This document shows, piece after piece, positions 5,291 to 63,804 of a stretch of 64,000 nt of DNA (position 1 is the first letter of the stretch; each line of letters begins with the position of its first letter). The notes under the pieces were generated by a model. It searched no databases, was not told where the DNA came from, and saw only the letters and a list, made by a program, of their open reading frames with translations. The translations under genes and the position numbers were made by a program. This stretch comes from Eledone cirrhosa. Taxonomy: Eukaryota. The DNA is taken from the NCBI GenBank assembly GCA_964016885.1, contig CAXHJY010000214.1:1-64000 (forward strand), given 5' to 3'.

Positions 5291-5895
5291 TTATTATTTT
5301 ACAAAACAGTGGCATACTAACATATATTATGGTATTTAGGTTTTTTTTTTATTTGGCGTTCAAATTAAGCTGGACTCAACTTTGCCTTTCATTTACCAAT
5401 GTCCATAAAATTATTATCAGGCATTCAATTCATATCTCTAACCTAAAAATATGGGCCTTCTGATTCAGTTTCATTTGAGGCAGTTTTAATATCAAGTCAT
5501 TTATTCAAAAGATACAGCATAATCGATTGAATCTTTGTCACCTAGTAAATAAATGTTTCTTATTCTAATTACCCTAGAAGAATGAAATGCAAAGTCAATC
5601 CCAATGGAAATTGAATGAGATTGTAGGGACTAGATGCTCCAAGGTTCTACTGTTTCTGCAAACTCTATTCTAACATTTAAAATATATTGTTGATTCCTAA
5701 CATTGAAATAAAGTATTGAAAATCTATATTTACATTGCAAAACAAAATCTTGAGCAATTTAAACCTCAGCTCATTAACAGTCATTACAGATATAAACATT
5801 ATATTTGTTTATATTATTTATATATTCATTTTCATTACTTATATTTATAAAATATAAGTAATCAACATAATTTTTGTTTGTATTTATTTGTTTAG

Positions 5896-5999
5896 ATCAC
5901 ATGAATAGTTGCATGGGTGGAGCACGCAAAAATGGTAGCACCTGGCACCCTGTTCTTAATCCATTTGGACCACATCTTTGTGTTCTTTGTTCTTGTATA
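5896..5999 (+). CDS. CHRDL: Chordin-like protein, first half of VWC/CR domain (DHMNSCMGGARKNGSTWHPVLNPFGPHLCVLCSCI)
   Basis: tttag|...|gtaagt. The WHP-x3-PFG-x3-CxxCxC motif is characteristic of chordin-family CR repeats and resembles CHRDL CR3. Confidence 0.93.
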
Positions 6000-7968
6000 G
6001 TAAGTAATTTTCACTTTATATCATATATGTATTTTAGTATACTTTCACTTTAAATATATTAAAATAAATTCAATATTTAACAACTTTTCAACATGCAATT
6101 CTTTCTCATACAGTTGTAATGTGTTCCCATAACAGTGTCCTATTTGACTCATTACAGAAGCAAAGCTTTTGTTGCTGGACTCATTATTATTTCATTTTTA
6201 CATTTATCTACTATCTGTGATCCAATAAAGAAATGTTTTTGATTCAAGAAAAGGAAATAGAAGCTGAGTTGATAATTAAGAGAAATCAATTAAAAGGTGT
6301 TATTTATCCAAGATTAACCTCTCAAACCAGGGAGAAGAAACTTCTCAAGTTAATCCAATGGCAATGCCCCTCAGCCTAACAAAGAACTGTTCAAACTAAT
6401 GAGAACTTCTCAAGTTTGCAATAGAAATTTAAATTCTCAAGCAAATGAGGAAAAAAACTGGAGCTGGTGGAATCACTTATAGATAGTTCCTAAAATAGCT
6501 GCTCTGTCTCCGATACTTTGTCAGGTGAGGATAGATGCTACTAATGAACTTCTCATGGCCTCACAGATTAGTAAGGAAAAGAAAAAACATTATTCTAACA
6601 CAAAAAGCTGAACACAAATGCTTACAAAAGAATGGACACCAATAAAGGCAGTCGATGACCAAGTGGTGATGATAAACTGGGCAATGGATTAAGTATGCCA
6701 CCCAAAACATAAGCAATCACACTGCCATGCTTTTGCTTTTTAGTTTAACAAATTTTACTTGCAGGGCTTTGGTCAACTGAAATCTATGGTAGAAGGCAAT
6801 TGGCTAAAATGACACATGGTGAGATCAGACCTTAAAGCCACTTAGTTGCGGAGCAAACTTCTTAACCACACAGCTGTACATGCATCTACTTAACTATGTA
6901 TTGATTCACCTAAATTACTGGTGTCCTTGGCCTTAAGACAACCTCCCTACTTACCACCATCAGCACAGAGTTGGCTACTCATAGGTGTGAGCCTCGCAAG
7001 CTGAAATGGCTCTTCCATCATGTCTCCCTCACTGTCCTCTGAGGAAATGCCTCCTCTATTCTGTCTGCAGAGCCATGGGGTGGCCAGTGCGTGAGGCCCC
7101 ATTTGCTCTTGATAGTGAGAGATAGGGAGAGTGGGAAAGACGGAGGTGGTGACAGTGGGTGTTTGCTTCCTTTATGTTCAGATCTGGTTTATCTGTATAT
7201 ATTTATTTATTACATGCTTCAATCATAAATTTTATGGTTAAGATGTTACTGCTACTACTCTTATACCATTAGGTTTATGTACAAATCTCTGGCTCACTAC
7301 CAAATTAATATTTAATTAGGACACAGAAGCTGTTCTGATTTATGATATACAGCATGAAAAATATCAGGTACATCCCATGCAATATTGCCATCAATGGGCC
7401 AAGCACATTACAGCCAATTCTCCCTAAAAGTACACCCTAAATTCTTTTTTAAAAAAAGTAAGACATATTAAATAGTATAGTCCTAAATATATAATGTTTG
7501 AAAAAACAATTAGATGGATATGACTGGAATGTCTTTGATCAAAGATCTGCTTGATCAAGTCAAGTGTAAGACTAAAATATGAACATCAGTATTTTAAAGT
7601 TTATCAATGACCCCCACCCCTATCCTATTAACCACTAATAGACTAACTACTGTGTTCATAACAGTCATCTTGATCATTTCATCAGTCTAAAAGCTGTCAT
7701 CACCACCAACATTGTTATTATCATGAGGATTTTCATTATCATACATTCAACAGTTTCATATGAATTTCTTTTGCACAACCAAGTGCACCTCAATATTCCT
7801 AAGGTGCATGCATCATTGTTTTCTTTTGGTGGAGGGATAAGAATGTATTTGTGTGTTGTATCAACTTGGTTTTAGCTGTAGGATTTGTTTAGCATCATTG
7901 TTATTGTCTATGTTTACTCCATCTCATAAGTTTACTAAATAAATGTATCGCTTTTTTTTTTCTTTAAG

Positions 7969-12565: not shown

Positions 12566-12689
12566 CAGCTTCTCACATAGAATATGTTAACATCAACCAA
12601 GAATTATTGCAGTCAAACTTTGTCTCATAGCCTGTATGCTTCAGTGAATGTGTTGAAAATGCATGTATTAGAGTGAATTTTCTGTTTCC

Positions 12690-13800
<1,111 letters not shown>

Positions 13801-14499
13801 ATTCATATACACACACACAGTTATGCATTTTTAGATGGAAATGAAACATGTATATAAATATATATGTACGTATTAATAAAAAAACAAAGACATATACATA
13901 TGTGAATGTATCACTCTTGCATACAAGAATATAAATCCATAGATACAAAAAGCACATATTTTCACTAGTATGTATGCATGTACTGAAACATATACAAATG
14001 GAGATAAATATTTGGCACACATGTATAATAACAAAGAGAAACCTTGGATGGAACCCTTAACACAAAAACTACAAATATATATGTATATTCATTCATTGTG
14101 TGAAAAAATGCTTGTGAGAATGACAAAATGAATTTTGAATAATTAATACCAGATGATGACATCATCAAAGACACAAATGATTGTGGGCATAAAAAACAAT
14201 CTACAAAAATACTTTTTAAAGAATTCAAACTTTAGATATGTCCTGTTAGGTAAAACAAGACAAATGCAACATGAAACAAAACAAATGTCTATATTCAAAA
14301 TATATTTCTCCTTCATTGCAATATGAAAATGAAAGCAGACTGACACTGTAGACAGAAAATAATGGTAATGCCTTAGCAGATTTCAAAACTGTTGCTTATA
14401 AAGAAAAAACACAAAGATATATGTTGATCTGTTAATGAAAACAGACAATTATATTATATGTATTTATGTATTAATATATGTAAATTTATAAACAGTCTG

Positions 14500-15190
14500 G
14501 ATAATATATATATTATATATATTATATATATATTTTATATATATTATATATAATATATATAATATATTATGTATATATATATTTTACATATATTATGTAT
14601 ATATATTTTACATATATTATGTATATATATATATTTTATATATATTATATATAATATATAAATATATATATATATATAATATATATATATATAATATATA
14701 TATGTATTATATATACTATATATATATTATATATATATATATATGTAATATATATATATATATTATATATATATATTATATATATATATATTATATATAT
14801 ATATTATATATAATATATATAAAATATATATATATAATATATGTAAAATATATATATATACATAATATATGTAAAATATATATACATAATATATGTAAAA
14901 TATATATATACATAATATATGTAAAATATATATACATAATATATGTAAAATATATATATAGACATAAATATATATATATAATATATATAAAATATATATA
15001 TAATATATATAAAATATATATATAATATATATAAAATATATATATAATATATATAAAATATATATATATAATATATATAATATATATATATAAAATATAT
15101 ATATAATATATATATAAAATATATAATATATATATATATATAAAATATATATATAATATATATATATATATAATATATATATATATAATT

Positions 15191-15238
<48 letters not shown>

Positions 15239-15664
15239 TAAAATATATATATATATATTATATATATAATATATATAATATATATATATAATATATATAA
15301 AATGTATATATAATATATAATATATATATATATATAATATATATAATATATATATATAATATATATTATATATTTATGATATATATATATAATATATATA
15401 TATTATATATTATATATATATATATATATAATATAATATATATATATATATATATATATTATAATATACATGTATATATAATATAATATATATATATATA
15501 TTATATATATAATATATATATATATATATATGTATATTATATATATATATATATAATATATATATAATTTAATATATGTATATTATATATATATATAATA
15601 TATATATAATTTAATATATATATATATAATATATATATATATTATATTATATATACATGTATAT

Positions 15665-15710
<46 letters not shown>

Positions 15711-16301
15711 ATATTATATATATATAATATATAATATATATATATAATATAATATATATATTATATTATATATATATAATATATAATATATAATGAATGA
15801 AATGATAATATGATATTTATATATATAATATATAATATATATATAATATATATATATAATATAATATATATATATAATATATATATAATATGATATATAT
15901 ATATATATATATATAATATATAATATAATATATATATATATATATAATATATATATATAATATAATATATATATATATAATATAATATATATATATATAC
16001 TATTATATATATATATAATATTATATATATATATAATATAATATAATATATATATAATATAATATAATATATATATAATATAATATATATATAATATAAT
16101 ATATATATATAGATAATATATATATATATAATGTAATATAATATAATATATATATATAATATAATATATATATATATAATATAATATATATATATAATAT
16201 ATATATATATAATATATATATATATAATATAATATATATATATAATATATATATATATATAATATAATATATATATATATATAATATAATATATATATAT
16301 A
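14500..16301. repeat. About 1.8-kb almost pure A/T degenerate (TA)n/(TATAA)n tract
   Basis: Directly visible, with very few G/C bases. Confidence 0.98.
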
Positions 16302-27164: not shown

Positions 27165-28170
27165 CTATAATACAGAACAGAAGAAACAAAAATAGAAAAT
27201 TAAATAGAAACACAAGTCTTTGGTGAAAGTAACTGTTCATATTTACCCCCACCAACCATCTTACTTTTATCACTTAATCCATTCTACCTCTGCCAGATCA
27301 TGCCAGTTGTATAAAATAGGAAATCACCAAATCCAGCTGTATCCAATTCACTTCTACAATTCCATTGCTTTATTGCTAGCAATACCCCTTCTCTCTCTTA
27401 CCACTACCTATCTTTATTGCTATCCATCACTCCCCCAGCAAAATCTTTCTCTCACTTCCATTACTCCCTCTTCTATCACCCCATCTCCCCCTTATCACTC
27501 TCTCTTTCCAGATGATGTCACTCATCCTGTTTCTCTGTTTAATCTCCTTACCAACAGCCAGCATGTAGCTTTCTATCACTATCACTCTTCCTTTACCACT
27601 ATCACTCTTTTACCCTGGATTCTCTTCCTAATGTGAACCACTTTGCAGCATGTACTGAGGTCATTTTATTATGTCACTGGCACTTCTACTTTACAGGGTA
27701 GACTGGGTGTTTTTTGACATAGCATCAGCACTACCACTTAACATTGTGGGCTGAATGCATTTTGTCATAGCATGCAATTTGCAAACCCATAAAGCCAATG
27801 AATGAATTATCCATTGATTATATTGAAAACATGTAGCAGCGTGATTGTACAGAGAGAGAGAGAGTACTGCATTTTAATATAAATGGTTAATTACAGATAC
27901 ACAAAAGATAGTTATAACTGGAGATTATTAAGTTACAATGAATGACTATGATAACATAGATGTCAGTTTTCAACCACATCTAATTGCCAAATTAGATGAT
28001 TATTTCAGCTTCATTCACCACCACAGGTTGCATATTTTCTAGAGCTGAATGTTTTAACTTCACCTACCCTGGCTTTGTTTTGTTTACTTGTCAATAGGAT
28101 TTACCAGAGCCTGTCTATTTTCAGATTCTAAGATACATAGGACTGGATATTAGTTTAATAATTAGTTTAA

Positions 28171-29907
28171 TCCTCGCTGACTACCTTAAGGATTCAACAT
28201 CACTACTTCACAGCATCGAATCAGTTGCAAAGGAAATCGGACTCTATGTCAACGCAGGCAAAACAGAATATATTTGCCTGAACCAAGACTCCTCAGTTAG
28301 TATGCGAAGTCTAAACGGCGATAAAATACTAGCTCTTTCAATTGCGGAGAGGGTTCTATAGAAATAGTGGACAGCTTCCGTTACCTGGGTGACAAAATCA
28401 GCAGTGGGGGAGGGTGCTCTGAAAGTACAGTAGCTAGAGTCAGAACTGGATGGAAAAAGTTCAGAGCTTATACCACTATTAGCCGCTAAAGGGTTCTCCC
28501 TAAAAATGAAAGGCAGGCTGTATGATGCCTGCATACGGACAGCAATGTTGCATGGCAGTGAGACCTGGGCATTGTGTGCAGAGGATATACGCAGACTAGA
28601 GAGGAACGAAGCTTGCATGCTCCGCTGGATGTGTAATAGTAATATACGTGAACGGCAAAGCATAAACGAACTAAGGAAAAAATTAGAAATAAGAGGGATC
28701 AGATGTTGTTTACTCGAGAGAAGGCTACGTTGGTATGGTCACGTGATGCGCATGAAGGGCGATAGCTGTATAACAAAGTGCAGGGCAATAAAGATAGACG
28801 GTAGCCACGGAGTAGGCAGACCCAGAAAAACCTGGGACGAGCTGATAAATTCCGACCTCACACACTTACACCTCTCCAAGACAATGTCACTGGACCGAGA
28901 CCTTTGGCGGTACTCAGTAATAGAGAAGACCCGCCTTACCTAAATACAAAGTAAAACCTACTACAGTCAGTAGGCATCTCTAACAAAATACACCCCCGTC
29001 CCACCACCCCCACCCCATCCACACCACCCCTTTCAATGTAAAGTTATGTTGGTGCCACAACATCCAGGCCGAAACAAATGAGATCGTGTAGGTGTCATGA
29101 CAAAAAAACACACAGTCCACGCTGTAATGTGGCCGTGTAGGCAACACGGTAAAAACCTCCCAGCCCCACACTGTAAATGTGGTTGGTGTTAGGAAGGGCA
29201 TCCAGCTGTAGAAAACCCTCCAGACAGTCCTATGCGAGCAATGACAACCACTCTTGCCTCAAGTGGGAAAACTCCCGTCCAAACCCATGCAAGCGTGGAA
29301 CATGGACGTTAAACGATGATGATGATGATGATGATGATGATAATAATCAAGCAAGTTGATGACTTCTAATACCTGGGTAACTATATCGCCTCCACAGAAC
29401 ATGATGTTAACATCAGACTGGGAAAAGCTTGGGGAGCATTGAATGCAATGGAAAAGATATGGAAATCAAACCTGCCGGCCAAACTGAAAAGGAATTTCTT
29501 TAGAGCTGCTGTGGAATCTGTGCTTGTTTATGGCTCTATCACTTGGACACTAACATTGAAACTGGAGAAAAAGCTAGACGGGGCATACACACGTATGCTC
29601 CGTGCTGCTTTAAACGTGTCTTGGAGGGAACACCCAACAAATAAGGATCTCTATGGCAATATACGTGGACAGAGACTCTGATTTGCTGGCCACTGTTGGT
29701 GCAGCAAGGAAGAAATAGCAGGTGGTGTGTTGTTATGGAGTCCATCTCATGGAGCAAGAAACGCTGGTCGTCCCAAGAAGACATACGTCAAGCAGCTTGA
29801 GGACGATACTGGATGCACTGCGGAAGAACTGGCAAACGCTATGAGAGACAGAGATGGATGGAGGAAACGTGTCGTAGAAAGCCGAGCAAGCTCGACCTGA
29901 TAATGAG
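28171..29907 (+). mobile_element. 5'-truncated RTE-group LINE (host) interrupted by a second RTE
   Basis: IGLYVNAGKTEY...SLNGDKI resumes after the insert as IKQVDDF*YLG...; ORF 29439..29681 ([12 protein letters not shown]). Candidate TSD TAGTTTAA at 28163-28170 and 29908-29915. Confidence 0.85.
28328..29344 (+). mobile_element. RTE LINE 3' fragment nested in the host LINE
   Basis: VDSFRYLGD; ORF 28506..28943 (MLHGSETW, RRLRWYGHVMRM, GRPRKTW); 3' UTR with (GAT)n tail. Confidence 0.92.
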
Positions 29908-30159: not shown

Positions 30160-30242
30160 CTCTAAAATAAACTGGAGCAAAGCATTATTACTGTTTAAAA
30201 CAAATAGCTGAGACTTCTTTGAAAACAGTCCATAGGCAGCAT
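30160..30242 (-). CDS. COG3: COG3 exon ([Y/D]AAYGLFSKKSQLFVLNSNNALLQFILE)
   Basis: tctttcag|...|gtaaag; LNSNNAL motif; phase 1-0. Confidence 0.94.
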
Positions 30243-32373: not shown

Positions 32374-35300
32374 TATAATGAAATTATTGTGTAGTGCTCT
32401 AGGGCACTACAACTCATCAAAGGTGCATGTATGGTACATAGAATAATATACAAATGTCAGGGAAGTGAATAGTGTATGAGTCATGATATACGTGTGTGCA
32501 TGTGTATGGAGGGGGAATATTAGGTGTAGTGTTGGCGAATCCCAGAAAGCATTGAGGTTTTAAAGGATGCAGTGTTTCAACAGCTAACAACTGATGCAGG
32601 TAGTTTGTTCCATGCTTCAGCAACTCTAAGTGTGAAAAAATGTTTCCAAAAGTCATAGGAGCTGTGCTGTTTTCTGACTTTGTTGGCATGCCCACGTGTG
32701 TTAGACACATGGAAATCAAAAAGGTACTCAGGGTTGTTGTTGGCAAGATGGTTAACAAGTCAGTTGCCAGGTGTCGGAGCTTCAATGTATCTATGCCCAG
32801 GGAAGCAAGGTGTTCAGAGTATGGTAGATGCCTGATGGAGGGTATTTGCTTGGTTGCACGTCTCTGAACAGTTTCCAGGCGGTCAATGTTCTGAGCAAGA
32901 TAGGGGTTTCAGACAGGTGATGTAAATTCTAAGTGTGGCTGCACCATAGCTATATACAACTTTAAATAGATATCTGGAAAGTGGCTGCCAAAGATCTTGC
33001 TGAGTGATGCTAAAACACCCTTGGCCCTCTTGACAATTTTAGAGACGTGCTTCGCCCAACGCAAATTGCTGCTGACAGTAATGCCCAGGTCATGTTCACA
33101 AGAAGACTTCTTGATATTAGTGTTGTAGAGGGAGTATGTGGGCGTTGGGTTTTTCCTCCCAAAATGCATGGTGGTACACTTGTCCACTGCCAGTCCATGA
33201 TCCATTGTTGCATTGTGTCCAGGTCAGATTGCAGGCAAAATCTAGTGTTCAGGATCCGTCCTTTTTATCTCAAGGTACAGCTTGATGTCATATGCATATT
33301 TCAGTAGTTGCATTCTTTAAGTGGCATCTATGTCATTAATATATGCCACAAACAAAAGAGGGCCCAGAACAGATCCCTGTGGTACACCATATGACATCTC
33401 ATACAGTGAAGAATGCTGTCCAAGAACCGTAACTACCTTTCTTTGACTGAAAATGAAGGACTTCAACCAGTTGAAAAGATCATCCTTCACAACCATTCCA
33501 GAGAGTTTTGCCATAAGTCTTTTGTATGGCACAGAATTGAAAGCTTTAGCAAAGTCAAGGTAAACAATATCCACCCATGAGCGACCATCAGTGATCCGGG
33601 TGATGTCTTCAAGAAACTCAATAAAATGATCACAGCAGCTGGAGTTAGGGATAAATCCAAATTGCGAGGGCCGGATAAGACTGTGAGAGTTACAGAAGTT
33701 CCAAAGTGATTCTCTGACACGGGATTCCATTAGTTTGGCAATGCAGCTAGTAAGACTGACTGGACGATTTGACAGGTGATGTGCGGTCACCCTTTTTGAA
33801 TAGAGGAATGACACTGGCAGTTTTCCATAGTTCTAATAGAATCCAATTTCAGAGGTGGTGGAGATGGTACACTCTGGACTTCAACAGTGAAAATGCCTGC
33901 ATAGCCTTCAGCAATGAGTTCTGTGCATTCTTTGAGGTCGTCAGTAATCTGGCTTGTGTGGGGATTCCGAAGTGGACAAACTGGAGAGTGAGGCCTCTGC
34001 TTTGAGTGAACACACTTCCAGAACACCTTACTGTCAGGGTTGGTTGCTATGCGCTGCTCATATTCAAGCACTGCCTTTTTTGTCACCCGTTTGAGATGGT
34101 TGGATGATTTATTTCGCTTTTTCCTATTGCTATCTGATTTTATGCAGTTTGTACTCACGTTCAGCATTACAACGTTCTTTCCTGTCAAGATAGACTACTG
34201 CAGTCTCCCAAATTGCACTTTTGGGATGCTTTTTCTGCTTACGTGGCATCAATGCTGCACATGCTGTCCATATTGAGTTCAGGATGTTGTGGAGTACAGA
34301 GTTGACATCTCCAGAGTCGTAAAACTCAAGCCAGTTTGGACGTTGCAGCTTGGTGCAGTAACAGTTCCAGTCTGCTTTATTCCAGTCAAAGTGAGCAGTT
34401 TGGAGATGGTTGTGCTTTTTGTTACTGCCCATGAGGGACAGATTGGCAATGATCATAGCATGATCAGAGTCAGCTAAAGGTTACTCAGTAGTAACACTAA
34501 TAACCATTTCAGGAGTAGTGGTGAAGAGTAGATCCAAAGTGTTGTCACCTCTTGTTGGGGAGGTGACTGCTTGGGACCAGTTCGAGTCCAGCTCAAGGAA
34601 ATCATTTGCACTTTGCAGCCAACGAAAGGTTTCCCAGTCAATCTCAGGGTGATTGAAGTCCCCCTGCAATAAAAACATAAATGGCTGTTTTCCTGGCAGC
34701 AGCTCTGAGGATATCACAAAGTTGAGTGTCCTGATGGTAATTCAGGGGACAGTAAACGACTCCAAGTAGCAGTGTTGACATGGTCATACGTACATCGCAC
34801 AAAAATACTTCTTGCTGCAATTGATTCAAATCAACACAACGAATTGCTGAAAAATTTGACCGAACGTAGACCATTACACCACCGCCCCCACGATTAATGC
34901 GGTCTTTACGAAACAAGTTGTAGCCAGTTATGCTGAAAACCCCATCACAGAGTAAGGAATGTGCCCATGTTTCCGTGTCTGTAATGAAATCAGGGTTGAT
35001 ACTTTTGACGTAGGAGTTAAAAAGATGTATCGTATTGCATAGACTACGTGCATTTAAGAACAACAATTTGTACCTTGATTCCAGTCTATGATTATGTGCA
35101 GGGGATGGCAGGTTGTTCTGATATAGTTTCCCAGAGTTTTTTCAGTTTTTTTATTGTCAGTTGTTGTGGGTACAGTGTTTTCAGACCAGTTGGTATCTCT
35201 TTTCTATGTTTCACCAGCCTTAACAAACTTCCATATCTGCCCATCATCACGTAGGCTGAAGCTTTTATGTTCTGCCGAGTTGCGATTTAAGGAAGCTGCA

Positions 35301-36760
35301 GTACGCAGCTTTGGGCGGACATCAGGTGGAAGACCAGGGCGTGTTCGGAAAGCAATCCGTCTTTCACGCCTAGCTTTATCAGAGGCCAAAAGATATGAAC
35401 ATGCCTCAGTTGAGTTCAAAAAAGACAGTCTAATTAGCCTGGGTTTTGGACCTGTTTGGCCAAGGCGTAGAGCACCTTTCGAGGGAGCACAGCCCAAGTC
35501 TTTGGATGAACTGACAGCAAATGTCTGAAGATCAACTATGTCTTCTGGTACACCAATGGCAATCACTTCATGGTTTACAGATTCAGTGGCATTCTCAATG
35601 CGTCTAGATTCAGCAAGAGGTACGTGGAGATTTTTTAACAAGGCACTCCGGTAAGATCCCTCATTGTGAAGTTCTACACAAACGCTTGATTTGATTCCTG
35701 CTATTTCTCGGCTTAAAGCAGAAATCATTTGCCGTATTTCCTCAAACTCTGTATTGATGGTCGATTTTTGTTGTTCTTCTTCTTCTTCAACAGGAATGGT
35801 AGGAGAAGACACAGTCGTCGGTTGTTGTTGTTGAAAAGTAACGGGGGAGGAAGACATGGGTTGCTGTTGTTGATGAAGTCCTTCAACAGGAGTAATAGCG
35901 GAAGTTACAGTTGTTGGTTTTTGCTGTTGTTCAGGAACAATGGTAGAGGAAGACACAATCGTCGGTTTTTGTTGTTGTTCAGCAGCAATGGTAGAGGCAG
36001 ACATATAAGCCAGGCACTGAAAGGACCAATTTGTTAGCTGAACCATTTCCCAGAGCCCATCCATCATAGAAGTATGGTGTCTCTTTTTCTGACCTGGGAT
36101 CTTTCGAAAGTGTGTGGCACATTGAAGGCAAACAGAAACACGACATTTGCCACATTTGACCCATCGATTTCGGAAGGAGTTCTCTGGTTCCGTACATAGA
36201 TGACAGACGTGATTTTCTGGGCAATGTTCTATTTTGGAACATCGCCCAGTTTTATTGCACGTTTCATCCATGGATGTCACAATAACTATTTTGTCCTGTC
36301 TGTCCATCCGTACAGTAGAACAAAATGTAAATGCAAACGAATAAATATGCTGCGTAAGTTCAGCACATTTGTTAACGAGATAAATACAATGTTTGTTTAT
36401 GTTTTGTTTTTGTATTTCTGTTTCTGTTTTCGTATGTATTGTGCGTGTGTATGCAAAAAGATCTGCACACAAATATATAATTATATCTATATAATTAAAA
36501 GGTGTATGTGGGTTAGAAGCGAAGTCAATGTTCAGAATGGTTTTATAATGTACGTAAAATTGGCCGGTATTTTGTCTCACACGAAATAGTGTGGTTTCTT
36601 TTCACTTGTGTGTATATGCGTGTGTGGCATGTATCTATATATAAATCTGTGTGTATATTGTTGTTTATAGATTTTGTGAAGTACTTACTGTGATCCCTAA
36701 GGGATGTAGTGATTTTTTTTTTTTTGTTCATGTCCACACGTGGTTTGTTGTCGAAAATCA
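32374..36760 (-). mobile_element. Near full-length CR1/L2-group LINE with open ORF1 and fragmented ORF2
   Basis: ORF1 35204..36580 (probable start 36307; PHD-like Cys motif, Q-rich repeats, coiled coil, IGVPE..RLG..PRLIRL). ORF2 pieces: LNARSL, TETW, GGGV, GDFNHP, RPVSLTS, YLDFAKAF, GVPQGSVLGPLLF. The 5' boundary is approximate. Confidence 0.9.
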
Positions 36761-41784: not shown

Positions 41785-41901
41785 CATGCATAAGGGATTA
41801 TAAGATGTTTACTAAAGTCATGCATATGGCATGCAGGAACATTTTTACAACTACGCATGCTATTACTTAACTTATATCTTATCCAGTTATTTTTACATGC
41901 A
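41785..41901 (-). promoter_or_regulatory. Cluster of UGCAUG (Rbfox-type) intronic splicing motifs
   Basis: CATGCA on + at 41785, 41819, 41830 and 41896, plus CATGC at 41856: 4 UGCAUG and 1 GCAUG in 117 nt of COG3 pre-mRNA. Confidence 0.6.
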
Positions 41902-41967
41902 CAAAGCAGAAGTTTTAAGATGTACAAATATTTCAAGATGTACAAATATATATACTGAATAAATAAT

Positions 41968-42154
41968 TATTTCTACTTTTGACACAAGGCCAGCAATTAT
42001 GCCAGTGCATTACTGGTGCTTTATTTTATCAATCCTGTAACGATGAAAGGCAAAGCTAACCTTGGTGGGATTTGAACCTATACCATAAAGGGCCATAACT
42101 CTATGCTGCAAAGCATGGTGTCTGACGCTCTACCAATACTGCCAATCCATTGCC
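41968..42154 (-). mobile_element. SINE family A copy with 13-bp TSD
   Basis: TSD CTGAATAAATAAT at 41955-41967 and 42155-42167; reverse-complement core. Confidence 0.88.
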
Positions 42155-42406
42155 CTGAATAAATAATGACTATAAATTAAATAAAACAACAAAACTACTA
42201 TGAAAGGAATCAATGGAATTAATAATTGAGGTGTAGCCTGAATATTTTCCAGTTATTTATCATTTATAGTTGTGACATATTAGTTCTACTACAGCATCAA
42301 CAATTGTGGCTCATCAAGACCTACAAGCAGATAGGACATAGTGAAGCAATACTAAAGCAGATAACAGTTTTTAGAAAAAAACCATAACCATAAAAAAAAA
42401 ACATAC

Positions 42407-42442
42407 CCCAAAGCAATCCCAGAACTGCATTTGGATTTGTAC
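42407..42442 (-). CDS. COG3: Candidate alternative 36-nt COG3 microexon (CTNPNAVLGLLW), phase 1-1
   Basis: Long pyrimidine tract + ttctcacag acceptor and GGG|gtatgt donor; length is a multiple of 3, open in frame. Inclusion turns the next codon into GAT, giving DAA as in the recalled human COG3. No transcript evidence. Confidence 0.6.
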
Positions 42443-42583
42443 CTGTGAGAACTGAGTAAGAAATAAAAGAATTAAATATTGCAAGACACCAAATTAACAG
42501 TTTATAGATAACATTATATTTTGAGTTACTCAAAATTTTCCTCGTTGACAATTCTAAAATTGAAACCTTTGAAATGAGATGTC

Positions 42584-43145: not shown

Positions 43146-44074
43146 GTGAAGGAAAGATGCATGAAATCAATCTCACCATCTCGACCTAGCCTGCTTTGAT
43201 CTGGAAGCAAGATAGCTGAAGGAAAGCCTGAATATTATAGACTACCAACACTTCTATAGTATCTCCTCATACTTTTAGCATTCCACAACAGTTGTTGAAA
43301 GCCCACTTTGTTATTGTTGGATCCACTGTTGTTCTCATCCACTCCATCTCCTTCATATGCTAAGGTAGACATGCCTTAATTCACTAAGAGTTTTAAGAAC
43401 CAACAATTACCCTCACCTGGTTTCAGAGATGGGCAGAATTTCTAGTAGACACTGTTACATAAAGCTCTCAAGTATGACTCCAGCTATGCACAATTAGGTG
43501 TTGATTAAAGCATATATTTTATGAAGAGAACTATGCATGCATTTAAACATGCATATAACATGCTCAATCAATACTAAACAACAACAATATGCAGAAATTT
43601 GATATGTTTGAAAGTTTTTGTACGAGAAAAATGTTTATGTGTGTGTGCGTTTGTGTGTGTTGTATACATACTAGCAATTAATAACTAATAGTTTCCATTC
43701 AGAGAAAACAGTTGTTATATAATGATGATGATGATGACAATGATGATAAGAAATATCGATGGAAATACAGTATTTTTGATAATTTTTTATAACAAAACAA
43801 ACATTTTTCAATGCAAATTGTTTGTCACTAAAATACAGGTGAAATGCTAACACAAAAAAAAATTGAGATAGAGCCAATGAAGGAGGTTTGGTCAACCTGC
43901 TATAAACAGCAACAAAATCTTCCTCAAATCACACCCTACCACCAGATACTGTGATCTTGGGTTTTATGCACATTATAGCTGCTATTATTACAGCTTGAAT
44001 GCCTTTGATCAAAGGTGGAGCTAAACAGCAACTGAGACCATTAACAATAGTGAAAAATGTTTATAAAAACTTAC

Positions 44075-44195
44075 ATTTCATTTTACTAAAATCCAGTGAT
44101 GTTTCCCTAATACTAAAATCAGCCTGGAATGGTGCAATTTGTTCTCGTAGAATCAGCAAATGCTTTATCATAAACATCTGACCATCAAGTAGTGT
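44075..44195 (-). CDS. COG3: COG3 exon ([40 protein letters not shown])
   Basis: [20 protein letters not shown] motif; phase 0-1; donor gtaagt. Confidence 0.96.
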
Positions 44196-48111: not shown

Positions 48112-51100
48112 ATATATATCATCATCATCATCACCGTTTTACATCCGTTCTTCCACGCTAGCATGGGTTAGACGGGTTGTCCTGTTGTGGGCAGTGTCTG
48201 GTCGGCTGACCATGCCTTGCTCATACAGGAACTGATTTGGCTTGATTTCTACAGCTGGATGCCCTTCCTAACACCAACCTCATTTACAGTGAGTGCTGGG
48301 TGCTTTTTCGTGACGCCTACACGTCCACTTTACAGTGTGGGCTGGGTGCTTTTTTGCCGTGGCACCTCCACGACCACCTTGCGGTGGGGGGTGTGGGGGC
48401 ATATTGTTTATATGCTTCAGCTTGTACCCATGGGAGGTCGGGTACTCTGTATTACTGCGTGACGCCAGAGGTCACGGTCGTGTGTCATTGCCTTTGAGAG
48501 GTGTAATTGGGTAAGGTCGGCTTTTATCACCTCATCCCAGGTCATCTTGGGTCTCCCCACTCCGCGGTTTCCATCGACTTCTAGTGCTCTGCACCTTTTT
48601 ATGCAGCTGTCATCCTTCATACGCATCACATGTCCATACCAGCGCAACCGCCTCTCCTGCACACAGCATTTGATTCCTCTTATGCTCAGTCTCTCTCTCA
48701 ATTCATTTATGCTTTGTCGTTCACGTATATTACTGTTACACATCCATCGGAGCATGCAGGCTTCGTTTCTCTCTAATCTACTTAAGTCTTCCACCTTCAG
48801 TGCCCAGGTCTCACTACCATGCAACATCGCTGTTCGGATACACACATCATACAGTCTGCCTTTCATTCTGAGGGAGAAGCCTTTTGCAGATAGCAGTGGT
48901 AGTAGTTCCCTAAACTTCTTCCATCCCGTTCTTACCCTAGTTATTGTATTTTCTGAACACCCACCTCTGCTGCTAATTCGGTCACCTAGGTAGCAGAAGC
49001 TGTCTACTGTTTCTACAGGGCCCTCCCAGAGATTGGTGGTACTTGTTTCCTGTGGCTGTCTGCTGCTTGCTGTCACAGCACAGCTGCTGCATATGAATCC
49101 TACATTCTTAATTAAGCTTCCTGAGATCCCGCTACATCTCTTGTGTACCCATTGTTTGCATTTGGGGCAGAGAATGGAGTTCCTACCTACACCTTTCCTA
49201 CATACTGAGCAAGGCCATTTCCCTGAGGGGATCTGGGTTCTGTTTTCTCGTCTACTTACAAGAACCTTAGTCTTTGTCATGTTGACTTTGAGACCCTTTC
49301 TTTCTAGTCCCTGCTTCCAAGTTTGGAATTTATTCTCTAGTTCTACCATAGATTCAGCTATAAGTGCAAGGTCATCAGCATACAGGAGTTCCCATGGGCA
49401 TCCGGTCTTAAACTCCTCCGTTATTGCCTACAGGACTATGATGAACAGGAGAGGGCTAAGAACAGAGCCCTGGTGGACCCCAACCTGTACTCATTGCTAA
49501 TCCTAACTTTGCTGACTGCTCCCCTATACATGGCTTGTACCGCTTTCACAAGCCATTCATCTACTCCTAGTTTTCTAAGAGCCCACCAGATTACAGCACG
49601 TGGAACTCTGTCAAAGGCTTTCTCAAGGTCGACAAATGCCAAGTAGAGTGGCTTACTTTTAGCTAGGTACTTTTCCTGTAATTGCCTCACAAGGAAGAGG
49701 GCATCAGTGGTGCCTCTTCCTGGTACAAACCCAAATTGCATCTCGTCTATTTTCACCCGGTCCCTAATCAGCTGTGCTATAACTCTTTCTGTTACTTTCA
49801 TGACCTGGTCCATCAACTTTATACCTCTATAGTTTCCTCTATCTAGTGCATCGCCTTTACCTTTGTAGCAGTTGACAATGATGCTACTGCACCAATCTTT
49901 TGGTATGGCCCCTTCTAGTATTACCTGGTTAACGATACGTGTGGTTATAGTGTGACCTACAGACCCAGATGCCTTCAGCATCTCGGCAGCTATACCCAAT
50001 GGACCGGTTGCCTTCCCCATCTTCATATCTTTGATTGCCTTACTTACTACGCTGCTGCTGACTTGTACTGCTGGTCCCTCTATAGGGTCTACTTGGGGTA
50101 GGGTCTCTTCTTCCCATGCATTCTCCTCATTTAGTAATCTATCATAATGACTCTTCCATGCATCTTTCTTCTCAGCACTTGTGAGGGCAAGCTCACCTTT
50201 ATCATTCCGGATACACTTCTCTCCAATGACATCACAACTATCTCTGACACACTGCCTCGCAATCTTGAATACCTCCTGTTTCTGGTCCCCACGTTGTAAA
50301 ACATGCTTGAATTTTCTATCCTCTGCTTCCCTCCTAGCTAAGTATACTTGTCGCCTAGCTTCCCTCTTGGTCTCTATGTAATGTACCCTGCTCCCCCCGT
50401 TCTTCCATTCTTTCCATGCCTGTCTCTTGGCCTTAACTGCTTCATCTACCTTATTGTTCCACCACCAAGTCACTCTCCTCCTGCCACAGACCTCATCCGT
50501 CGCCTCTAGTAAATTATTTTTTAGGAACTCCCAGTTCTCTTCTACGTTAAATGTCTCTATCTGTTCTTCTTTACTGTCGTAGGCGTTGAGTAAAATATCT
50601 TTAAATCTGTTACTGGTTGAGGGGTCTTTCAGCTTCCAGATCTTTCTTCTCCAGGTTGGCCTCTGTTTCCAGGTTCGTCTAGTTCTGACTGTGAGGTCGC
50701 TGACAACTAAGCTATGTTGGGATGTACATTCCTCACTAGGGAAGGCTTTTGTGTTTACGACCGTCCATCTGTCACGTCCTCTGATGAGGATAAAATCTAT
50801 CTGACTAGAGTGCTCCCCTGATCTATAGGTGATCAGGTGGTTGTCGGGTTTTTTAAAGTTTGTGTTACATATCGACATGTCATTGGCGTCGCAGAATTCT
50901 AGAAGTCTGAATCCTTCCTCATTCCTTGTGCCAACTCCATGGCCTCCATGTACTCTATTGAAGCCGTCGCAGTGTTTACCTACGTGTCCGTTAAAATCTC
51001 CTGCGATGATTAGGAAGTCCTTGTCGTCTGTTAGAGCAGTAGTGTGCATTAGGGACTCGTAAAACCTATCCGTAAGTTCGTCTGGCAGCCCCGATTGGGG

Positions 51101-51152
51101 TGCGTAAGCTGATATTATTGTGGTAATTGTCTTATTCAGGACTAGTCTGAGT
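48112..51152 (-). mobile_element. RTE-clade LINE, 5'-truncated, inactivated
   Basis: ORF 49436..51049 (partial AP endonuclease GDFNGHVG, SQIDFIL; RT NYRGIKL, QFGF, FVDLEKAFD). Frameshift near 49490, TAG in IVL*AIT, YADD at about 49371-49382, then ORF 48417..49349. 3' UTR ends in a (GAT)n tail inside (TA)n. Confidence 0.95.
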
Positions 51153-51167
51153 TTATATATATATCCT

Positions 51168-56448: not shown

Positions 56449-57573
56449 ATATCATCATCATCTTCATTTAATGTCCATTTTCCACGCTAGCATGGGTTCA
56501 TATATATTATTCAAAATATTAATAGATGAAAAATATTCTCATAACCAAAATATATATTTTATTATACAAATTTCAAAGGTACAATGGTGTTTAAGTACGT
56601 TTTCATCAGATAAAATATGAGAGATTGGATATGCGACATACGGCTACAGTTTTGATTATTCAATTCCAGTAGAGGCAGTGATTTATTTCACCAACCCCCA
56701 ACGTTTTTATACCACAAATAATATGATAAACTTAGAGAAGAAGAGAACGTAGGTATAGAAGGGGAGTTGAGATGGAAGATGCGAAGAAAAAGAAGGGAAA
56801 TAAATAAATAAATAAAAGAAGAGAAGATGCAGAGAGAGAAGAAGGGTAATAAAAAACATATATAAACTTAATCATCATTTTTGTCTATTTTTCCAAGACA
56901 TTTTTGAAACAGACTTTGGACAGCCAGATGCCTTTCTTGACACCAAACCATGCTTTATTTTAAGTATGTTATATGCCACTCTTGTTCATAAAACCACTAT
57001 GCTGCAGCACTCATTGTTTTATGGGGGAACAGTCACTGTTTTTATAGATGATGTTAATGCGATGTTGGCAGTACTGGAGCATACACACATACAACAAGCT
57101 TCCTTACAGTTTCTCTCTACAAAATTCACTGATAATGCATTGGACAACCTGGAACTATAGTAGAAGACACTTGTATAAGATGCCATGCAGTGGGACTCAT
57201 CTCAAAACCATGTAATTCCAGAGCAAAATTATTTCTTTGGCATGGGTTAGACAAACTTTCATGGTTCAAGACCAGACATGTAAGATTGACCCATCTTGCT
57301 CATAAGTTACATTTTTGGTATAGTTTCTATGGCAGGATACTCTTCATAATGCCAACCAGCTTACTGAATGTACTAGGTGTGTTTTTTGATGAATTAATTT
57401 AATTCTTTATTTCTATTCATCATAAATAACTATATGGATTTAACTGCAAAAGCATGCAGAAAGAATGATGTTAAAATTAATGGATTTTGCTTCCCTTCAA
57501 AAGTATGGTACAAGAAGTGCATATTATGAAACAAACATAAAACCATTTTAAAAAACAATAAAATGTTACCAAC

Positions 57574-59256: not shown

Positions 59257-60837
59257 CTGTTAGAGATAAACAGAAGCAAAGTCAATTATGAAGAACTCTT
59301 TATTTCAAAAACAAAATCTAATGATATGTACTGAGAAAAATAGGAAGTTTACAAAAAGCATCATAGCAAACATAGAATTATCAGTTGAAAAAAGAAAAGC
59401 TCAGATTAACAGGTACATTTTAAAAAAACTACAACAAAAGAAAATGCTAAAAGAATTCATTGACATTCCACTCTTTATTAATGACAATCTACCTGAGTCA
59501 CTATCTGTAGATAGCACTTGGCTGCTCACCTCAAAGTCATCTGGTTGTTGTTCTTTATCCTCAAGATAGCCTTGAAATAGAAATATGCAGCAGTGATCAT
59601 CACTTTTTCTTTATTTAACCATAGTGTATCAGGACCACATTATCTTATGCATCTACTTCAGATGGTTGAGAATGATATAAAGAAAATTTGGCTATTTATA
59701 GTAGGTGGAACAATTTAATAGATGTAACTAATGCAGTCAAACCCAGTCAGCTAAGTTCAGAAATATGATGGATATTGACTTTCACCAATGATCGTATCTA
59801 TGTATGCATAGTAGTAGAATCATAGGTATAAAAACTGTCATACATATATAATCCCATATGGGTCCACCTGACACTAGAATGAAGCAGTGAGCATGTGAAA
59901 GATATGAAGAGAGGAGCTAATACAATTAAGAATACAAGATAGAAAGAAGAACAGAAATGCCATCAAGAGAAAAGAAACAATTGTGCTTTGTAACTATTTT
60001 ATTTATTTCTTCTCTTTTTAAGGAATTCATTATATTTATCTGTTATACATCAGTCATAATGTACTGATGTTCAAAGAACATGCATTGATCTTACAACTTT
60101 AGTAATAATCACATTCCACCATCATTTGCATATCCATATACATATTCAATCATAGATTGCTCCTCACTCTGTCATATAGTCACACAGACGTTTCTCATTA
60201 GTGGTTTTCCACTGCTTCTCCAAGTAGGCAAGAGTTTTAAAGCAGGGTGAAATGGGGTTTGCAATCATCATCATTTAACATCCACTTTCCCAGCCAGCAA
60301 GGGTTAGATGAGTTGGCACAGACAAAGTCAGTATTGAAGCTGAGCTCCTGACCTCTTGGATGGGCTGGGAGCTTGCATCTCACTTACATACATTCCCACA
60401 CTTTACAGGCGAGGGCCCACATCTCGCTCACATACATTCCAGCACTCTGCCAAGTGAAATTTATCATGGCACCAGCACTAGGGGTGGTCACCATATCTAT
60501 TACACAGCTGAAGAGTCCTCTAGACATGTTGGCAGATTTTATATGGCTGGATGCACTTTCTATAACCAACCATTTTATAGACTGTAATCAGTGTGTATAA
60601 GTGAAATGAAACAGCTACAAACAGGAATCACAACAAGGTTGTAGACTCAACTCACTGGAAACTACCCAAGAACACCTTTCTAGAACAATCATAAGAAGAA
60701 CGGAGTCTCAAAATAGAAATATTATAGTAAAGGATCAACTAACTTGATATTAGAATTATAGTGATACAGAGTATCTTATTGAATGAAATATTAACAGCTA
60801 AGCTGCAATGTTAGACAAGAAAGACAACCATACATAC

Positions 60838-60964: not shown

Positions 60965-61793
60965 CTACAACATAATGTTATGTCATAGTAATATTGATAT
61001 AGTTTCATAAATAAAAAATATCTCTTAGTAATCATGCAATCATTATGACAGAAAGGAATTATCATACATGTTGATAAATGCTATCAAGAATCAGTACATA
61101 AAAAAGGGTTGAGTTTCACCACAATCATCAAGCAAATCCCTTATTTAGATAAGTAAAACTAAAGAAATTTGAGACAGATGAGTTAAGATAATACCAAAAT
61201 ATACTATGACATCTTAAAACAAGCACCACTAAGGTGGAAAAGAATGCTATTGAAAATCTGAAAAACAATATCACAATACTTCTAGCAGATAAAACTAATT
61301 TCTCAAAATACCAGCTAAATCTCCCTAAAACCAGATCCTACTGACAGGGCCAGATTTAATGGGGAGCAAAGGAGACAATTGTCCCTGACCCCCTGCTGTG
61401 GGGGGTTCCACTAGCAACGGCTATAGTAATTTATTTGTGCCCTCAGCTGGGCTTTTTTTTTTAGGATGGTTAGAATTTTTGAATTTAATACCTGTATGTA
61501 TAACTTGCACCAAGTTAACTTTGATATGTTTGCTGTGTATCCTAATTTTTTGTGTATGAGGGGCTCCCCCAAGGTTTAAATCCAACCAGCCTACTGTCTG
61601 AAAAAGGGAAGGATACATTAGATAATGTAATGTGTAAGATATATTATGCCATAAAAATGATGGGGTCACCAGGATTGGAACACCATTTGATCATATGTCT
61701 GCTCAATCTAGGCTGAACTGAGGCTCAACAATAACTTTCTTGAACTGAAACACTTCAGAGAAGATATTCTAAAAGAAGTTTTTTCATCTAAAC

Positions 61794-62750
61794 CACAGGT
61801 TCTCAACCCATTTAGGCCAAACGCCCCCTTTTGTCCCTCGAAATCACGACCCCCCCCCCCCCACCCCCACCCCCCAATTTTTCTATTTTTCAATATACTA
61901 CTGATTTTTATATCAGTAGATTACTAAAAAATTGATTAACAATATTCCAAAGATGTGTGTATTATCTGATTATGTGTTGTATGTGGTCCTAGATGTGTGT
62001 ATTATCTGATTATGTGTTGTATGTGGTCCTAGATGTGTGTATTATCTGATTATGTGCTGTATGTGGTCCTAGATGTGTGTATTATCTGATTATGTGTTGT
62101 ATGTGGTCCTAGATGTGTGTATTATCTGATTATGTGTTGTATGTGGTCCTAGATGTGTGTATTATCTGATTATGTGTTGTATGTGGTCCTAGATGTGTGT
62201 ATTACCTGTTTATATGTTGTATGTGGTCCTAGATGTGTGTGCTACTCGCTTCTGTTTTTTCTTTTCTTTTTTTTTTATTTGTAATATTATTTATACAATA
62301 AGGAATAAAATAGATCTACATAGTGTTAACTCGTTATGGCTGAGTCAATAATTTCAGACATGAAATACATTGTTATCGGTGAAGGAAAGATAAGATTCTA
62401 ACTGGCTGCGCGCAAAGTGTCTTTGACCCAGTTGACTGGGTTTTTCCATTTTTAGGATCTCAATTACCGGTTAACGTCTCAATTACCGGACACGCCTGCA
62501 CACCTGCTCACAGCTGCGGTCAGACTATAGTTATGCTGTCTGCAAGCTCATTCAAATGCATTCACACTGGCTGTCTCAAAGACATACAAATATGGCTTAT
62601 AAAACTTACCAAAATAAAGAGCCTTCCAGCGCCCCCTAACCCCCTCCCCCAGCTCCAAACGCCCCCCTAACGCGACCCTGCTCCCAAACGCCCCCCTGGA
62701 GTTCCAAAACGACCCCCGGAGGTGCATATGCCCCTCGTTGAGAACCTTTG
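61794..62750. mobile_element. Non-autonomous hAT (Charlie-like) DNA transposon
   Basis: 14-bp TIRs CACAGGTTCTCAAC / GTTGAGAACCTTTG (13/14 match); perfect 8-bp TSD ATCTAAAC at 61786-61793 and 62751-62758; subterminal CGCCCCC motifs. Confidence 0.9.
61951..62240. repeat. 40-bp minisatellite, 7.25 copies (AGATGTGTGTATTATCTGATTATGTGTTGTATGTGGTCCT)
   Basis: Head-to-tail units at 61951, 61991, 62031, 62071, 62111, 62151, 62191 and a partial unit at 62231; no spacers. Confidence 0.97.
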
Positions 62751-63804
62751 ATCTAAACAAAGGGCTAGGTTTCAAATTATTTTTCACACTAGTACAAAAT
62801 CTATCATCATCATCATTGTTTAACATTCATTTTCCATGCTAGTATGGATAGAAGTATCCAATATTTGCAAGTATAACAAAAGATGGAGTTAATATCTTAT
62901 TAACAAATAAATAGACTAAAAACTATACAACTATTTTCCTTTCTAGCAACTGGAGAGGAACAGGTGGAATAGGATCTGTTAAATATGAAATGTTTATAAA
63001 CAAGTTGAGTTTTTGTAAAAAAATAAAAGCCACTGGTTATCAAAGTTATTGGTCAATGTAAGAAGCAATGATGAGTAAAAGAGGTGGTTATGTAAAAAAT
63101 ACACTAAGTAAGACTTGGGGGCAGAAATAGTTAGACAAGTCCTTGTAACATATCAACAAACTGGCATGATAATGTATGACTGGAATGCACAGAGAGATAC
63201 TACACTACCATCCATACTAACACAGAAAAATAGAACTAATGTTCATGATGATGATTTAAGAAAACCCTAAATTTAAAGAATTATTTAAATATGTACATGA
63301 TCAACATCATATTTACTTCTCTTTTTCTATGTGTATATGGACTGAATAAAACTTTTTGAGGCAGAATACTATGGCCAGATGCCCTTCCTGATGCCAACCC
63401 TCACTTGTTTCATAAAGTATGGATCTTTGGATGCAGTGAGTAGTGAAGAGACAAACAAACAAACAAACAAACAAACACACGTGCACAGATAATCATCATC
63501 GTCATCATCATATATACAGAACAGGTTTCCTTACAGTTTCTGTTGTCTGAATTCATTCACAAAGCATTGGTCAGTCTGAGACTATAGTAGGAAAACATTT
63601 GCCAAAGTTGCCATGCAGTAGGATTGAACCTAATACAAAAATGCTAAATCAAATGAAAAATGTCTGTAATTAACAAATATGTAAATTACTCATACTATTT
63701 GTGATGTGAATGTTAGTAGTGGTGGTAGGAGGAACTTAAAAACATCAAAAGTTTTTTTTTTAATCTGAATGTTTGAATAAATGCAACAAGATATGTTTAC
63801 TAAC

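What the first reader, a model, noticed from the sequence alone, without database searches (positions are those of the whole stretch)
41785..42451. Candidate Rbfox-regulated 36-nt COG3 microexon
Seen: in the 13.8-kb phase-1 intron there is a strong acceptor (tttaattcttttatttcttactcagttctcacag), a 36-nt open exon (CTNPNAVLGLLW) and a GGG|gtatgt donor. A second in-frame acceptor 9 nt upstream would give 45 nt. Skipping yields KMK-YAAY; inclusion yields KMK-CTNPNAVLGLLW-DAAY, which restores the Asp of the recalled human KKTRDAAF. Four UGCAUG and one GCAUG lie 506-622 nt downstream (only about 300-420 nt before a TSD-flanked SINE inserted in between). Known: Rbfox bound downstream of an exon promotes inclusion in neurons and muscle. 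Inference: a lineage-specific, tissue-regulated hydrophobic insert in a Golgi tethering subunit; I know of no such COG3 isoform.
Basis: partly seen in the sequence, partly recalled or inferred. Interest (0 to 1): 0.75.

Follow-up and report, generated by a model that had tools for sequence, protein, structure and literature searches.

The report
Mollusc-wide optional mini-exon in COG3
An octopus gene for a Golgi vesicle-tethering protein (COG3) splices in a 45-base mini-exon that related octopuses either include or skip, and snails, clams and a chiton carry a small insert at the same spot; it is likely switched by tissue and is predicted to reshape a small knob of the protein beside a site that vertebrates alter by RNA editing.

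Summary
The exon is real, but it is 45 nt (42451-42407), not 36 nt. A spliced contig of this organism joins 44075>42451 and 42407>30242. RefSeq Octopus has +15 aa, +3 aa (9-nt form, same acceptor) and skipped isoforms; 0 of 317 COG3 proteins show the 36-nt form. It is not lineage-specific: inserts of 6-16 aa sit at the same junction in cephalopods, gastropods, bivalves and a chiton, with both isoforms in 18 of 20 mollusc clusters opened (chosen for isoform names) and 0 of 10 non-mollusc ones. The insert's last seven residues repeat the hydrophobic pattern of the upstream exon's last seven, so inclusion likely swaps the start of one helix in register (low-confidence models). The vertebrate A-to-I site I635V lies nine codons before the junction. 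The UGCAUG cluster is real and beyond simulated chance, but tissue pattern, motif conservation and Rbfox dependence are untested (Rbfox about 50%). The 'restored Asp' argument fails.

The parts
44075..44195 (-). Upstream constitutive COG3 exon (121 nt, ends in phase 1 with T); encodes the first strand of the predicted appendage, with T638, the counterpart of vertebrate edited I635
   Evidence: 100% match to Octopus COG3; contig X4 positions 1856-1976
42407..42451 (-). 45-nt alternative exon; inclusion gives FLTGTNPNAVLGLLW then Asp in place of Tyr
   Evidence: Spliced contig X4 positions 1977-2021, loose ends equal the two neighbouring exons; RefSeq X1 of O. sinensis and O. bimaculoides
42443..42451 (-). 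9-nt short form: same acceptor, internal donor (+3 aa); annotated in two Octopus species, not seen in the one run laid here
   Evidence: P0002, P0123; the same 9-base donor context closes the exon ending at 23400
42407..42442 (-).
   Evidence: Top PWM candidate; 0 of 317 proteins; not in contig X4
42452..42528 (-). Acceptor region: 75-nt AG-free run, pyrimidine tract, one TGC at -32, no CTAAY in the last 120 nt
42279..42406 (-). Donor, U-run at +6 to +15, four YGCY (Muscleblind-type) at +48 to +111, one ACTAAY (QKI-type) at +123: rival control elements
   Evidence: motif assignments recalled
41955..42167 (-). SINE-like repeat (42154-41968) with exact 13-bp target-site duplication
   Evidence: very high contig depth; duplication read; tail multi-copy in genome
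41785..41901 (-). Cluster of four TGCATG and one GCATG: candidate Rbfox enhancer
   Evidence: no second copy of this stretch found in the genome (lower bound)
43536..43563 (-).
30160..30242 (-). Downstream constitutive COG3 exon (83 nt)
   Evidence: its first 30 bases are the loose end at 42407

Best explanation
This is a 45-nt in-frame exon of COG3 that is spliced in here, is included or skipped in related octopuses, and has a counterpart at the same junction across molluscs; it is likely one ancient exon, likely switched by tissue with Rbfox on the downstream UGCAUG cluster as the most likely activator, and is predicted to swap the start of one helix in a small appendage of the tethering rod. 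Shown: exon, boundaries, isoform pairs in annotations, motif cluster. Inferred: single origin in the molluscan ancestor (about 0.8); tissue regulation (about 0.8); Rbfox contribution (about 0.5); register-keeping helix swap that pushes about 10-15 residues out as an extra turn and loop (about 0.6); a change in partner binding rather than in folding of the rod (about 0.4). Likely origin: partial tandem duplication of the upstream exon's 3' end with its donor.
For: Spliced 2859-nt contig with both junctions. RefSeq 845/833/830-aa isoforms in two Octopus species; squid- or cuttlefish-like assembled proteins with and without it. Insert identical in this octopod and both Octopus species, and 14 of 15 identical in the decapodiform-like proteins, against 84-87% for the whole protein: as conserved as the protein. 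48 of 279 scorable proteins carry an insert, all molluscan. Anchored on the right, hydrophobic residues at -2 in 27 of 27 lineages, -5 in 24 of 27, -7 in 17 of 24, the same places as in the upstream exon's end; cross-class similarity exceeded all 5000 shuffles. Oyster insert DFNKMK resembles the upstream DFSKLK. Models: one helix 643-654 when skipped; helix 643-649, loop, helix 653-669 when included. Assemblies differ in which form they hold: among listed oyster members with Logan contigs, 21 contigs skip and 1 includes, while X4 includes. Downstream UGCAUG marks Rbfox-enhanced micro-exons in mammals (PMC4317164, passages); O. vulgaris has RBFOX-like transcripts (PMC5736919, passages).
Against: No tissue-labelled RNA; skipping was not seen in this genome's own data (one run, contigs only). 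Motif conservation could not be tested. Motifs lie 500-620 nt away, and no RNA bridge was found (67 of 200 shuffles as stable). Real sequence clumps more than Markov chains (several TGCATG doublets elsewhere) and the 117-nt width was chosen after the fact. PF12414 (Fox-1_C) found nothing in this genome. Rival motifs lie closer to the donor. Insert lengths (6-16 aa) and sequences differ widely between classes, and the shared pattern could come from structural constraint on independent exons. pLDDT of the insert region is only 49-56. Mollusc isoform pairs are automatic gene models, and clusters were chosen for isoform names.
Confidence: 0.6

Rival explanations
1. Same regulated exon, but driven mainly by another factor (Muscleblind on the four proximal YGCY, a U-rich binder beside the donor, QKI, or Srrm234/eMIC at the acceptor); the UGCAUG cluster is incidental or secondary.
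For: Four YGCY in the first 150 nt (4.8% of 150-nt windows of the gene reach this; constitutive donors 0-3), U-run at +6, ACTAAY at +123. 75-nt AG-free run, second longest of 14 acceptors measured; long AG exclusion zones mark eMIC exons in flies (PMC8797185, passage).
Against: The UGCAUG cluster is far rarer than the YGCY group. The only TGC is at -32 and there is no CTAAY branch point in the last 120 nt.
Confidence: 0.22
2. Several independent exonisations or splice-site shifts at a permissive intron in different mollusc classes; the shared pattern reflects only what the helix tolerates.
For: Lengths 6, 8, 10, 12, 15, 16 aa with little identity between classes. Separate small inserts occur at the next intron in Lineus and Mytilus, so this region gains inserts easily. 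Recurrent gains of tissue-specific exons in the same genes are common (bioRxiv 10.64898/2026.09.05.749416, passages).
Against: Present in all four classes sampled and in 18 of 20 clusters opened, and absent from 10 non-mollusc clusters and from 20 complete non-mollusc introns at the same position. One gain is simpler than four or more.
Confidence: 0.1
3. The exon is alternative but not tissue-switched (a mixed or mostly included exon), with little functional difference.
For: The only RNA-like run shows inclusion in one unbroken contig. The insert falls at a variable position in a low-confidence region.
Against: Both isoforms are kept across the phylum, the peptide is as conserved as the protein, and assemblies differ in the form they hold.
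Confidence: 0.06
4. The first reader's 36-nt exon is the main included form.
For: Its acceptor scores higher in a PWM from this gene (5.6 against 3.4; top candidate).
Against: Contig X4 and five cephalopod proteins use the upstream AG; 0 of 317 proteins show the 36-nt product. The upstream AG is the first after a 75-nt AG-free run, as scanning predicts (own knowledge).
Confidence: 0.02

Closest known systems
RBFOX-enhanced alternatively spliced micro-exons of 51 nt or less (Li et al. 2015, PMC4317164; passages read)
   Same: Short, frame-keeping cassette; weak acceptor, long flanking introns; TGCATG cluster downstream
   Different: Mollusc, not mammal; motifs 0.5-0.6 kb away; no CLIP, knockdown, tissue or motif-conservation data; COG3 not linked to a micro-exon in my searches
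Srrm3/4 (eMIC)-dependent neural microexons (Torres-Mendez et al. 2022, PMC8797185; passages read)
   Same: Long AG exclusion zone, pyrimidine tract with TCTT, trafficking gene; the 9-nt form is in the usual size range (3-27 nt, recalled)
   Different: 45-nt main form is longer; UGC only at -32; no CUAAY branch point
Vertebrate COG3 I635V A-to-I recoding (PMC8659423, PMC4751552, PMC6373152; passages read)
   Same: Conserved, tissue-variable RNA-level change in the same exon, nine codons before the junction, on the first strand of the same predicted appendage
   Different: One-residue recoding by ADAR, not a spliced insert; the octopus has Thr at that place; shared function is untested
Tandem duplicated exon substitution events (PMC9741552; search listing only)
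   Same: The added peptide resembles its neighbour exon's end and would replace it in the fold
   Different: Additive, not mutually exclusive; only about 7 codons alike; no DNA-level duplication shown
RefSeq COG3 isoforms X1/X2/X3 of Octopus and X1 of other molluscs (e.g. XP_029633683.1, XP_014774963.1, XP_013085382.2, XP_034313820.1)
   Same: The very same exon (Octopus) or the same junction (others)
   Different: Automatic models with no statement on homology, regulation or function

Membership tests
COG3 (Sec34) family | COG3_N and COG3_C domains; CATCHR helical rod | tested here: met
   P0121: PF04136 E 2.8e-44, PF20671 E 1.1e-104; window exons match it; best fold match Exo70, Z 15.7, rmsd 13.1, 472 aligned
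Alternatively spliced micro-exon (51 nt or less) | Internal exon of 51 nt or less that is spliced in | tested here: met
   45 nt, both junctions in contig X4
Alternatively spliced micro-exon (51 nt or less) | Both inclusion and skipping occur | tested here: met
   Met for two Octopus species and 18 of 20 mollusc clusters opened; skipping not seen in this genome's own single run
Rbfox-activated cassette exon | UGCAUG enriched in the downstream intron | tested here: met
   4 in 117 nt; 0 of 300 simulations per model; 14 constitutive donors have 0-2 within 700 nt
Rbfox-activated cassette exon | Motifs conserved in related species | not testable with these tools
   No relatives of this genome are held; the metagenome scan gave one mollusc-like locus with only 434 nt of intron
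Rbfox-activated cassette exon | An Rbfox gene in the organism | tested here: inconclusive
   PF12414 no match in G000; RBFOX-like transcripts reported in O. vulgaris
Rbfox-activated cassette exon | Neural or muscle-biased inclusion that depends on Rbfox binding | not testable with these tools
   No tissue-labelled RNA run served; needs RNA-seq by tissue and a minigene
eMIC/Srrm234-dependent microexon | Long AG exclusion zone | tested here: met
   75 nt against 20-97 nt for 13 constitutive acceptors
eMIC/Srrm234-dependent microexon | UGC close to the 3' splice site | tested here: inconclusive
   Single TGC at -32
eMIC/Srrm234-dependent microexon | Strong CUAAY branch point | tested here: not met
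   None in the 120 nt upstream; only TTAAT at -46 and -24
Tandem duplicated exon substitution | Homologous exons spliced mutually exclusively | tested here: not met
   Contig X4 holds the upstream exon and the mini-exon together
Tandem duplicated exon substitution | Detectable homology between the two exons | tested here: inconclusive
   Last 6 aa resemble the upstream exon's last 6 aa more than all 10000 shuffles, but helix constraint could give the same

The most novel reading that the evidence does not exclude
The two-strand, helix-tipped appendage at COG3 residues about 634-700 is a regulatory knob of the COG tether that animals have put under RNA-level control more than once: molluscs by a 500-million-year-old cassette exon that replaces the start of a helix in register, vertebrates by ADAR recoding at I635V nine codons away, a nemertean and mussels by inserts at the next intron. 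All would tune the same partner-binding surface, giving tissue-specific Golgi tethering.
Probability: 0.2. Interest if true: 0.75.

Novelty: new member of a known kind. Interest (0 to 1): 0.45.

Why it matters
Alternative exons kept as alternative across a whole invertebrate phylum are uncommon, and COG is usually treated as an invariant housekeeping tether. The exon gives molluscs two or three COG3 forms and points to one small appendage whose role is unknown. The conserved vertebrate I635V editing has a cell phenotype (PMC6373152) but, in the passages I read, no molecular explanation; a natural 15-residue insert beside it is a larger perturbation of the same spot and makes the question easier to test. 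It is also a clean candidate for the first test of Rbfox-type splicing control in a cephalopod. If inclusion proves unregulated, it is an ordinary annotated isoform.

Tried and rejected
Run search: no RNA holder listed; X4 has no recorded kind and is taken as RNA only because its contig is spliced. X1 spans the region in one piece and may be this DNA's source, so it is no independent support. The wide lay was crowded by repeat joints; the narrow lay gave the junctions. Fox-1_C search in the genome: no match. RNA bridge between donor flank and motif cluster: not better than shuffles. No PDB chain matched COG3 by sequence and none appeared in the fold searches, so no partner can be placed on the appendage; no complex was folded, as no partner is proposed. 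Metagenome scan: 80 loci; 29 with an intron at or near this position were examined, 20 gave a complete intron (62-1085 nt, annelid-like and one other animal); 6 lineages had chance-looking candidates, none shared. L028 has a 42-nt candidate whose frame and acceptor are not kept in sister loci: rejected. No phase-0 mini-exon candidate in the next intron of this genome at my thresholds. Search of shorter proteins: 41 hits, none with an insert. Atlas look-ups for two side ORFs gave no result. Torres-Mendez et al. 2019 was not held. Scan notes: none near, none by sequence, two unrelated micro-exon notes by words. A transposon origin of the UGCAUG cluster was considered; no second copy was found (lower bound).

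Full report
Setting. The window holds the 3' two-thirds of COG3 on the minus strand: 14 constitutive exons were mapped from 63923 to about 23400. The protein is close to, but not the same as, those of three named Octopus species (for example 89-90% in one exon), so the source is an octopod. The intron in question runs from 44074 to 30243, phase 1.

The exon is real and 45 nt long. The run search listed four holders from one study, none on record as RNA. Run X4 has a 2859-nt contig (depth 58.4) that runs 46209-46120, then 44195-44075, then 42451-42407; its loose ends equal the last 30 bases of the upstream exon and the first 30 of the exon at 30242. So both junctions are spliced and the acceptor is the upstream AG. 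Tissue is unknown, and contigs drop minor forms, so skipping in this organism is neither seen nor excluded. RefSeq has 845-, 833- and 830-aa COG3 for O. sinensis and O. bimaculoides: +15 aa (this exon), +3 aa (its first 9 nt, closed by an internal donor) and the skipped form with Tyr. That choice is what consensus scoring gives, but 0 of 317 stored proteins has the 36-nt product. The used AG is the first after a 75-nt AG-free run, as scanning from the branch point predicts (own knowledge).

It is mollusc-wide. Of 317 proteins, 279 could be scored across the junction and 38 could not (fragments, read-through ORFs, pattern misses); 48 carry an insert: 45 named molluscs and 3 unnamed proteins that group with Sepia or its sister clade. 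Inserts are 15 aa in coleoids, 15-16 in gastropods, 6-12 in bivalves and 12 in a chiton. I opened 20 mollusc clusters, chosen mostly because their names showed isoforms: 18 hold both forms, the other two have one member. Ten non-mollusc clusters (nemertean, echinoderms, hemichordate, ticks, one unnamed) have none at this junction. The intron position is older: annelid-like loci and one other animal keep it in phase 1, and 20 complete introns show no shared mini-exon. One counter-case is open: the Paralvinella model P0177 has 7 extra residues here; they begin like a donor read-through and the model looks faulty nearby, yet they fit the insert pattern. Annelid sampling is single gene models and no brachiopod was retrieved, so an older origin is not excluded. 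With a chiton included, one origin would be Cambrian or earlier (date recalled).

What the insert would do. Anchored at its right end, the insert has hydrophobic residues at -2 (27 of 27 lineages), -5 (24 of 27), -7 (17 of 24) and -1 (23 of 27), and polar or small ones at -3, -4 and -6; the upstream exon ends with hydrophobic residues at -7, -5 and -2. Similarity to the own upstream end exceeded all 10000 within-insert shuffles (also for 11 lineages alone), and similarity across classes all 5000; lineages are related, so these are not probabilities. In the skipped model, residues 643-654 form one helix in a bulb between two strands (634-641 and 678-685), pLDDT 74-86 for 641-680. In the included model the helix breaks into 643-649, a short loop and 653-669, pLDDT 49-69 (20 of 100 rows carry an insert). 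The simplest reading is that the insert's second half takes the place of the old helix start in the same register and the displaced residues bulge out. Confidence is low. The pattern suggests origin by partial duplication of the exon end with its donor, clearest in oysters, but selection for the same helix face would look alike. The Asp argument fails: the junction residue is Asp in 43 of 100 aligned sequences, between near-invariant Leu-Asp and Ala-Ala.

The same appendage varies elsewhere. The conserved vertebrate recoding site is codon 635 after Glu634, with Glu621 upstream (PMC8659423, passages); in an 828-aa rodent COG3 these match, and I635 aligns to octopus T638, nine codons before the junction. 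Editing there varies with tissue, age and feeding in chicken (PMC4751552, passages) and the edited form raised migration and proliferation of glioblastoma cells (PMC6373152, passages). Lineus (10 aa) and Mytilus (6 aa) have inserts at the next intron, at the other end of the bulb. Subunit contacts reported for COG3 involve its N-terminal region (PMC13734120, passages); the passages of a COG review that I read name no partner for this part (PMC6771879). The convergence may be chance: other small isoform differences lie elsewhere in COG3 of echinoderms and ticks.

Regulation. The cluster stands: four TGCATG in 117 nt, against 27 on the sense strand of 41 kb; 0 of 3000 simulated 700-nt and 0 of 300 simulated 13.8-kb sequences reached it under each of three Markov orders; 14 constitutive donors have 0-2 within 700 nt; no second copy was found. 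Against: the width was chosen after the fact, doublets are common, the whole-window count is only mildly high (63 against 50.5 +/- 7; 6 of 100 shuffles), a second small cluster lies upstream, no RNA bridge was found and the Fox-1_C profile found nothing. Four YGCY, a U-run and an ACTAAY lie nearer the donor (factor names recalled). In mammals Rbfox-enhanced exons are often 51 nt or less and have downstream TGCATG (PMC4317164, passages); O. vulgaris has RBFOX-like transcripts and NeuN-like staining in neurons (PMC5736919, passages); alternative splicing is highest in octopus neural tissue (PMC9699675, passages). Indirect signs of a switch: among listed oyster members with Logan contigs 21 contigs skip and 1 includes (15 listed of 71 members), the squid-like clade has 3 skipped and 1 included, and X4 includes. 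I put tissue regulation at about 0.8 and an Rbfox role at about 0.5.

What is in print. 'COG3' with 'microexon' gave 2 papers, neither on this exon (one read in passages, one listing only). 'microexon, octopus, neural' gave 1, whose main text has no COG3. The six-term mollusc splicing search (1,239 papers, 20 listed), 'microexon' with 'mollus' (25, 20 listed), 'Rbfox' with 'octopus' (11, 10 listed) and the Rbfox-mollusc search showed no title on it; I saw listings only, unless noted above. The 2019 eMIC paper was not held, and I did not see the supplements of the 2026 bioRxiv study or of PMC9699675; both cover octopus and may list this exon.

Verdict. Observation partly confirmed, interpretation partly supported. 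A real, ancient, alternative mini-exon, present in automatic annotations but seemingly not described as a phylum-wide event: new member of a known kind.

Noticed in passing
P0244 and P0149/P0159, at the junction matching window 30160>27164: Small isoform inserts at the next COG3 intron: 10 aa in Lineus, 6 aa in Mytilus galloprovincialis. No phase-0 candidate in this genome's intron at my thresholds.
   Followed up: partly
P0245, P0246, P0269 (octopus position 227/228, outside this window): Echinoderms (Amphiura, Acanthaster, Asterias) have their own 13-14 aa optional insert at one shared COG3 junction: a second, independent clade-wide mini-exon candidate.
   Followed up: no
P0177 residues about 646-653: Paralvinella COG3 model has 7 extra residues at the same junction; read-through artefact or an annelid counterpart, unresolved.
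   Followed up: partly
window 44075: The upstream exon ends in T in coleoids (Tyr when skipped) where other molluscs give Asp or Gly; some annelid-like loci also end in T or A.
   Followed up: partly
window 35207-36601 (-): 465-codon stop-free frame inside the same intron with a Cys-rich stretch; no Pfam family over its cut-off. Possibly part of a mobile element.
   Followed up: partly
window 32420-34741 (-), 49439-51166 (-), 28098-28940 (+), 29370-29897 (+): Broken LINE-type reverse-transcriptase and endonuclease frames in COG3 introns (the first two regions checked by Pfam).
   Followed up: partly
window 56816-57157, 59270-59566, 61712-61924, 62618-62839 (+): Protein-like open frames antisense within COG3 introns; no Pfam match. 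Could be a nested gene or element remnants.
   Followed up: partly
window 5871-6050 (+): Short Cys-rich frame that looks like a von Willebrand C-type repeat exon of a neighbouring gene (recalled likeness; no Pfam match).
   Followed up: partly
window 2393-3068: Mariner-like transposase remnant (weak HTH_48 match, E 0.011).
   Followed up: partly
window about 12600-16300: Very AT-rich simple-repeat block (GC 8% in 14001-16000).
   Followed up: no
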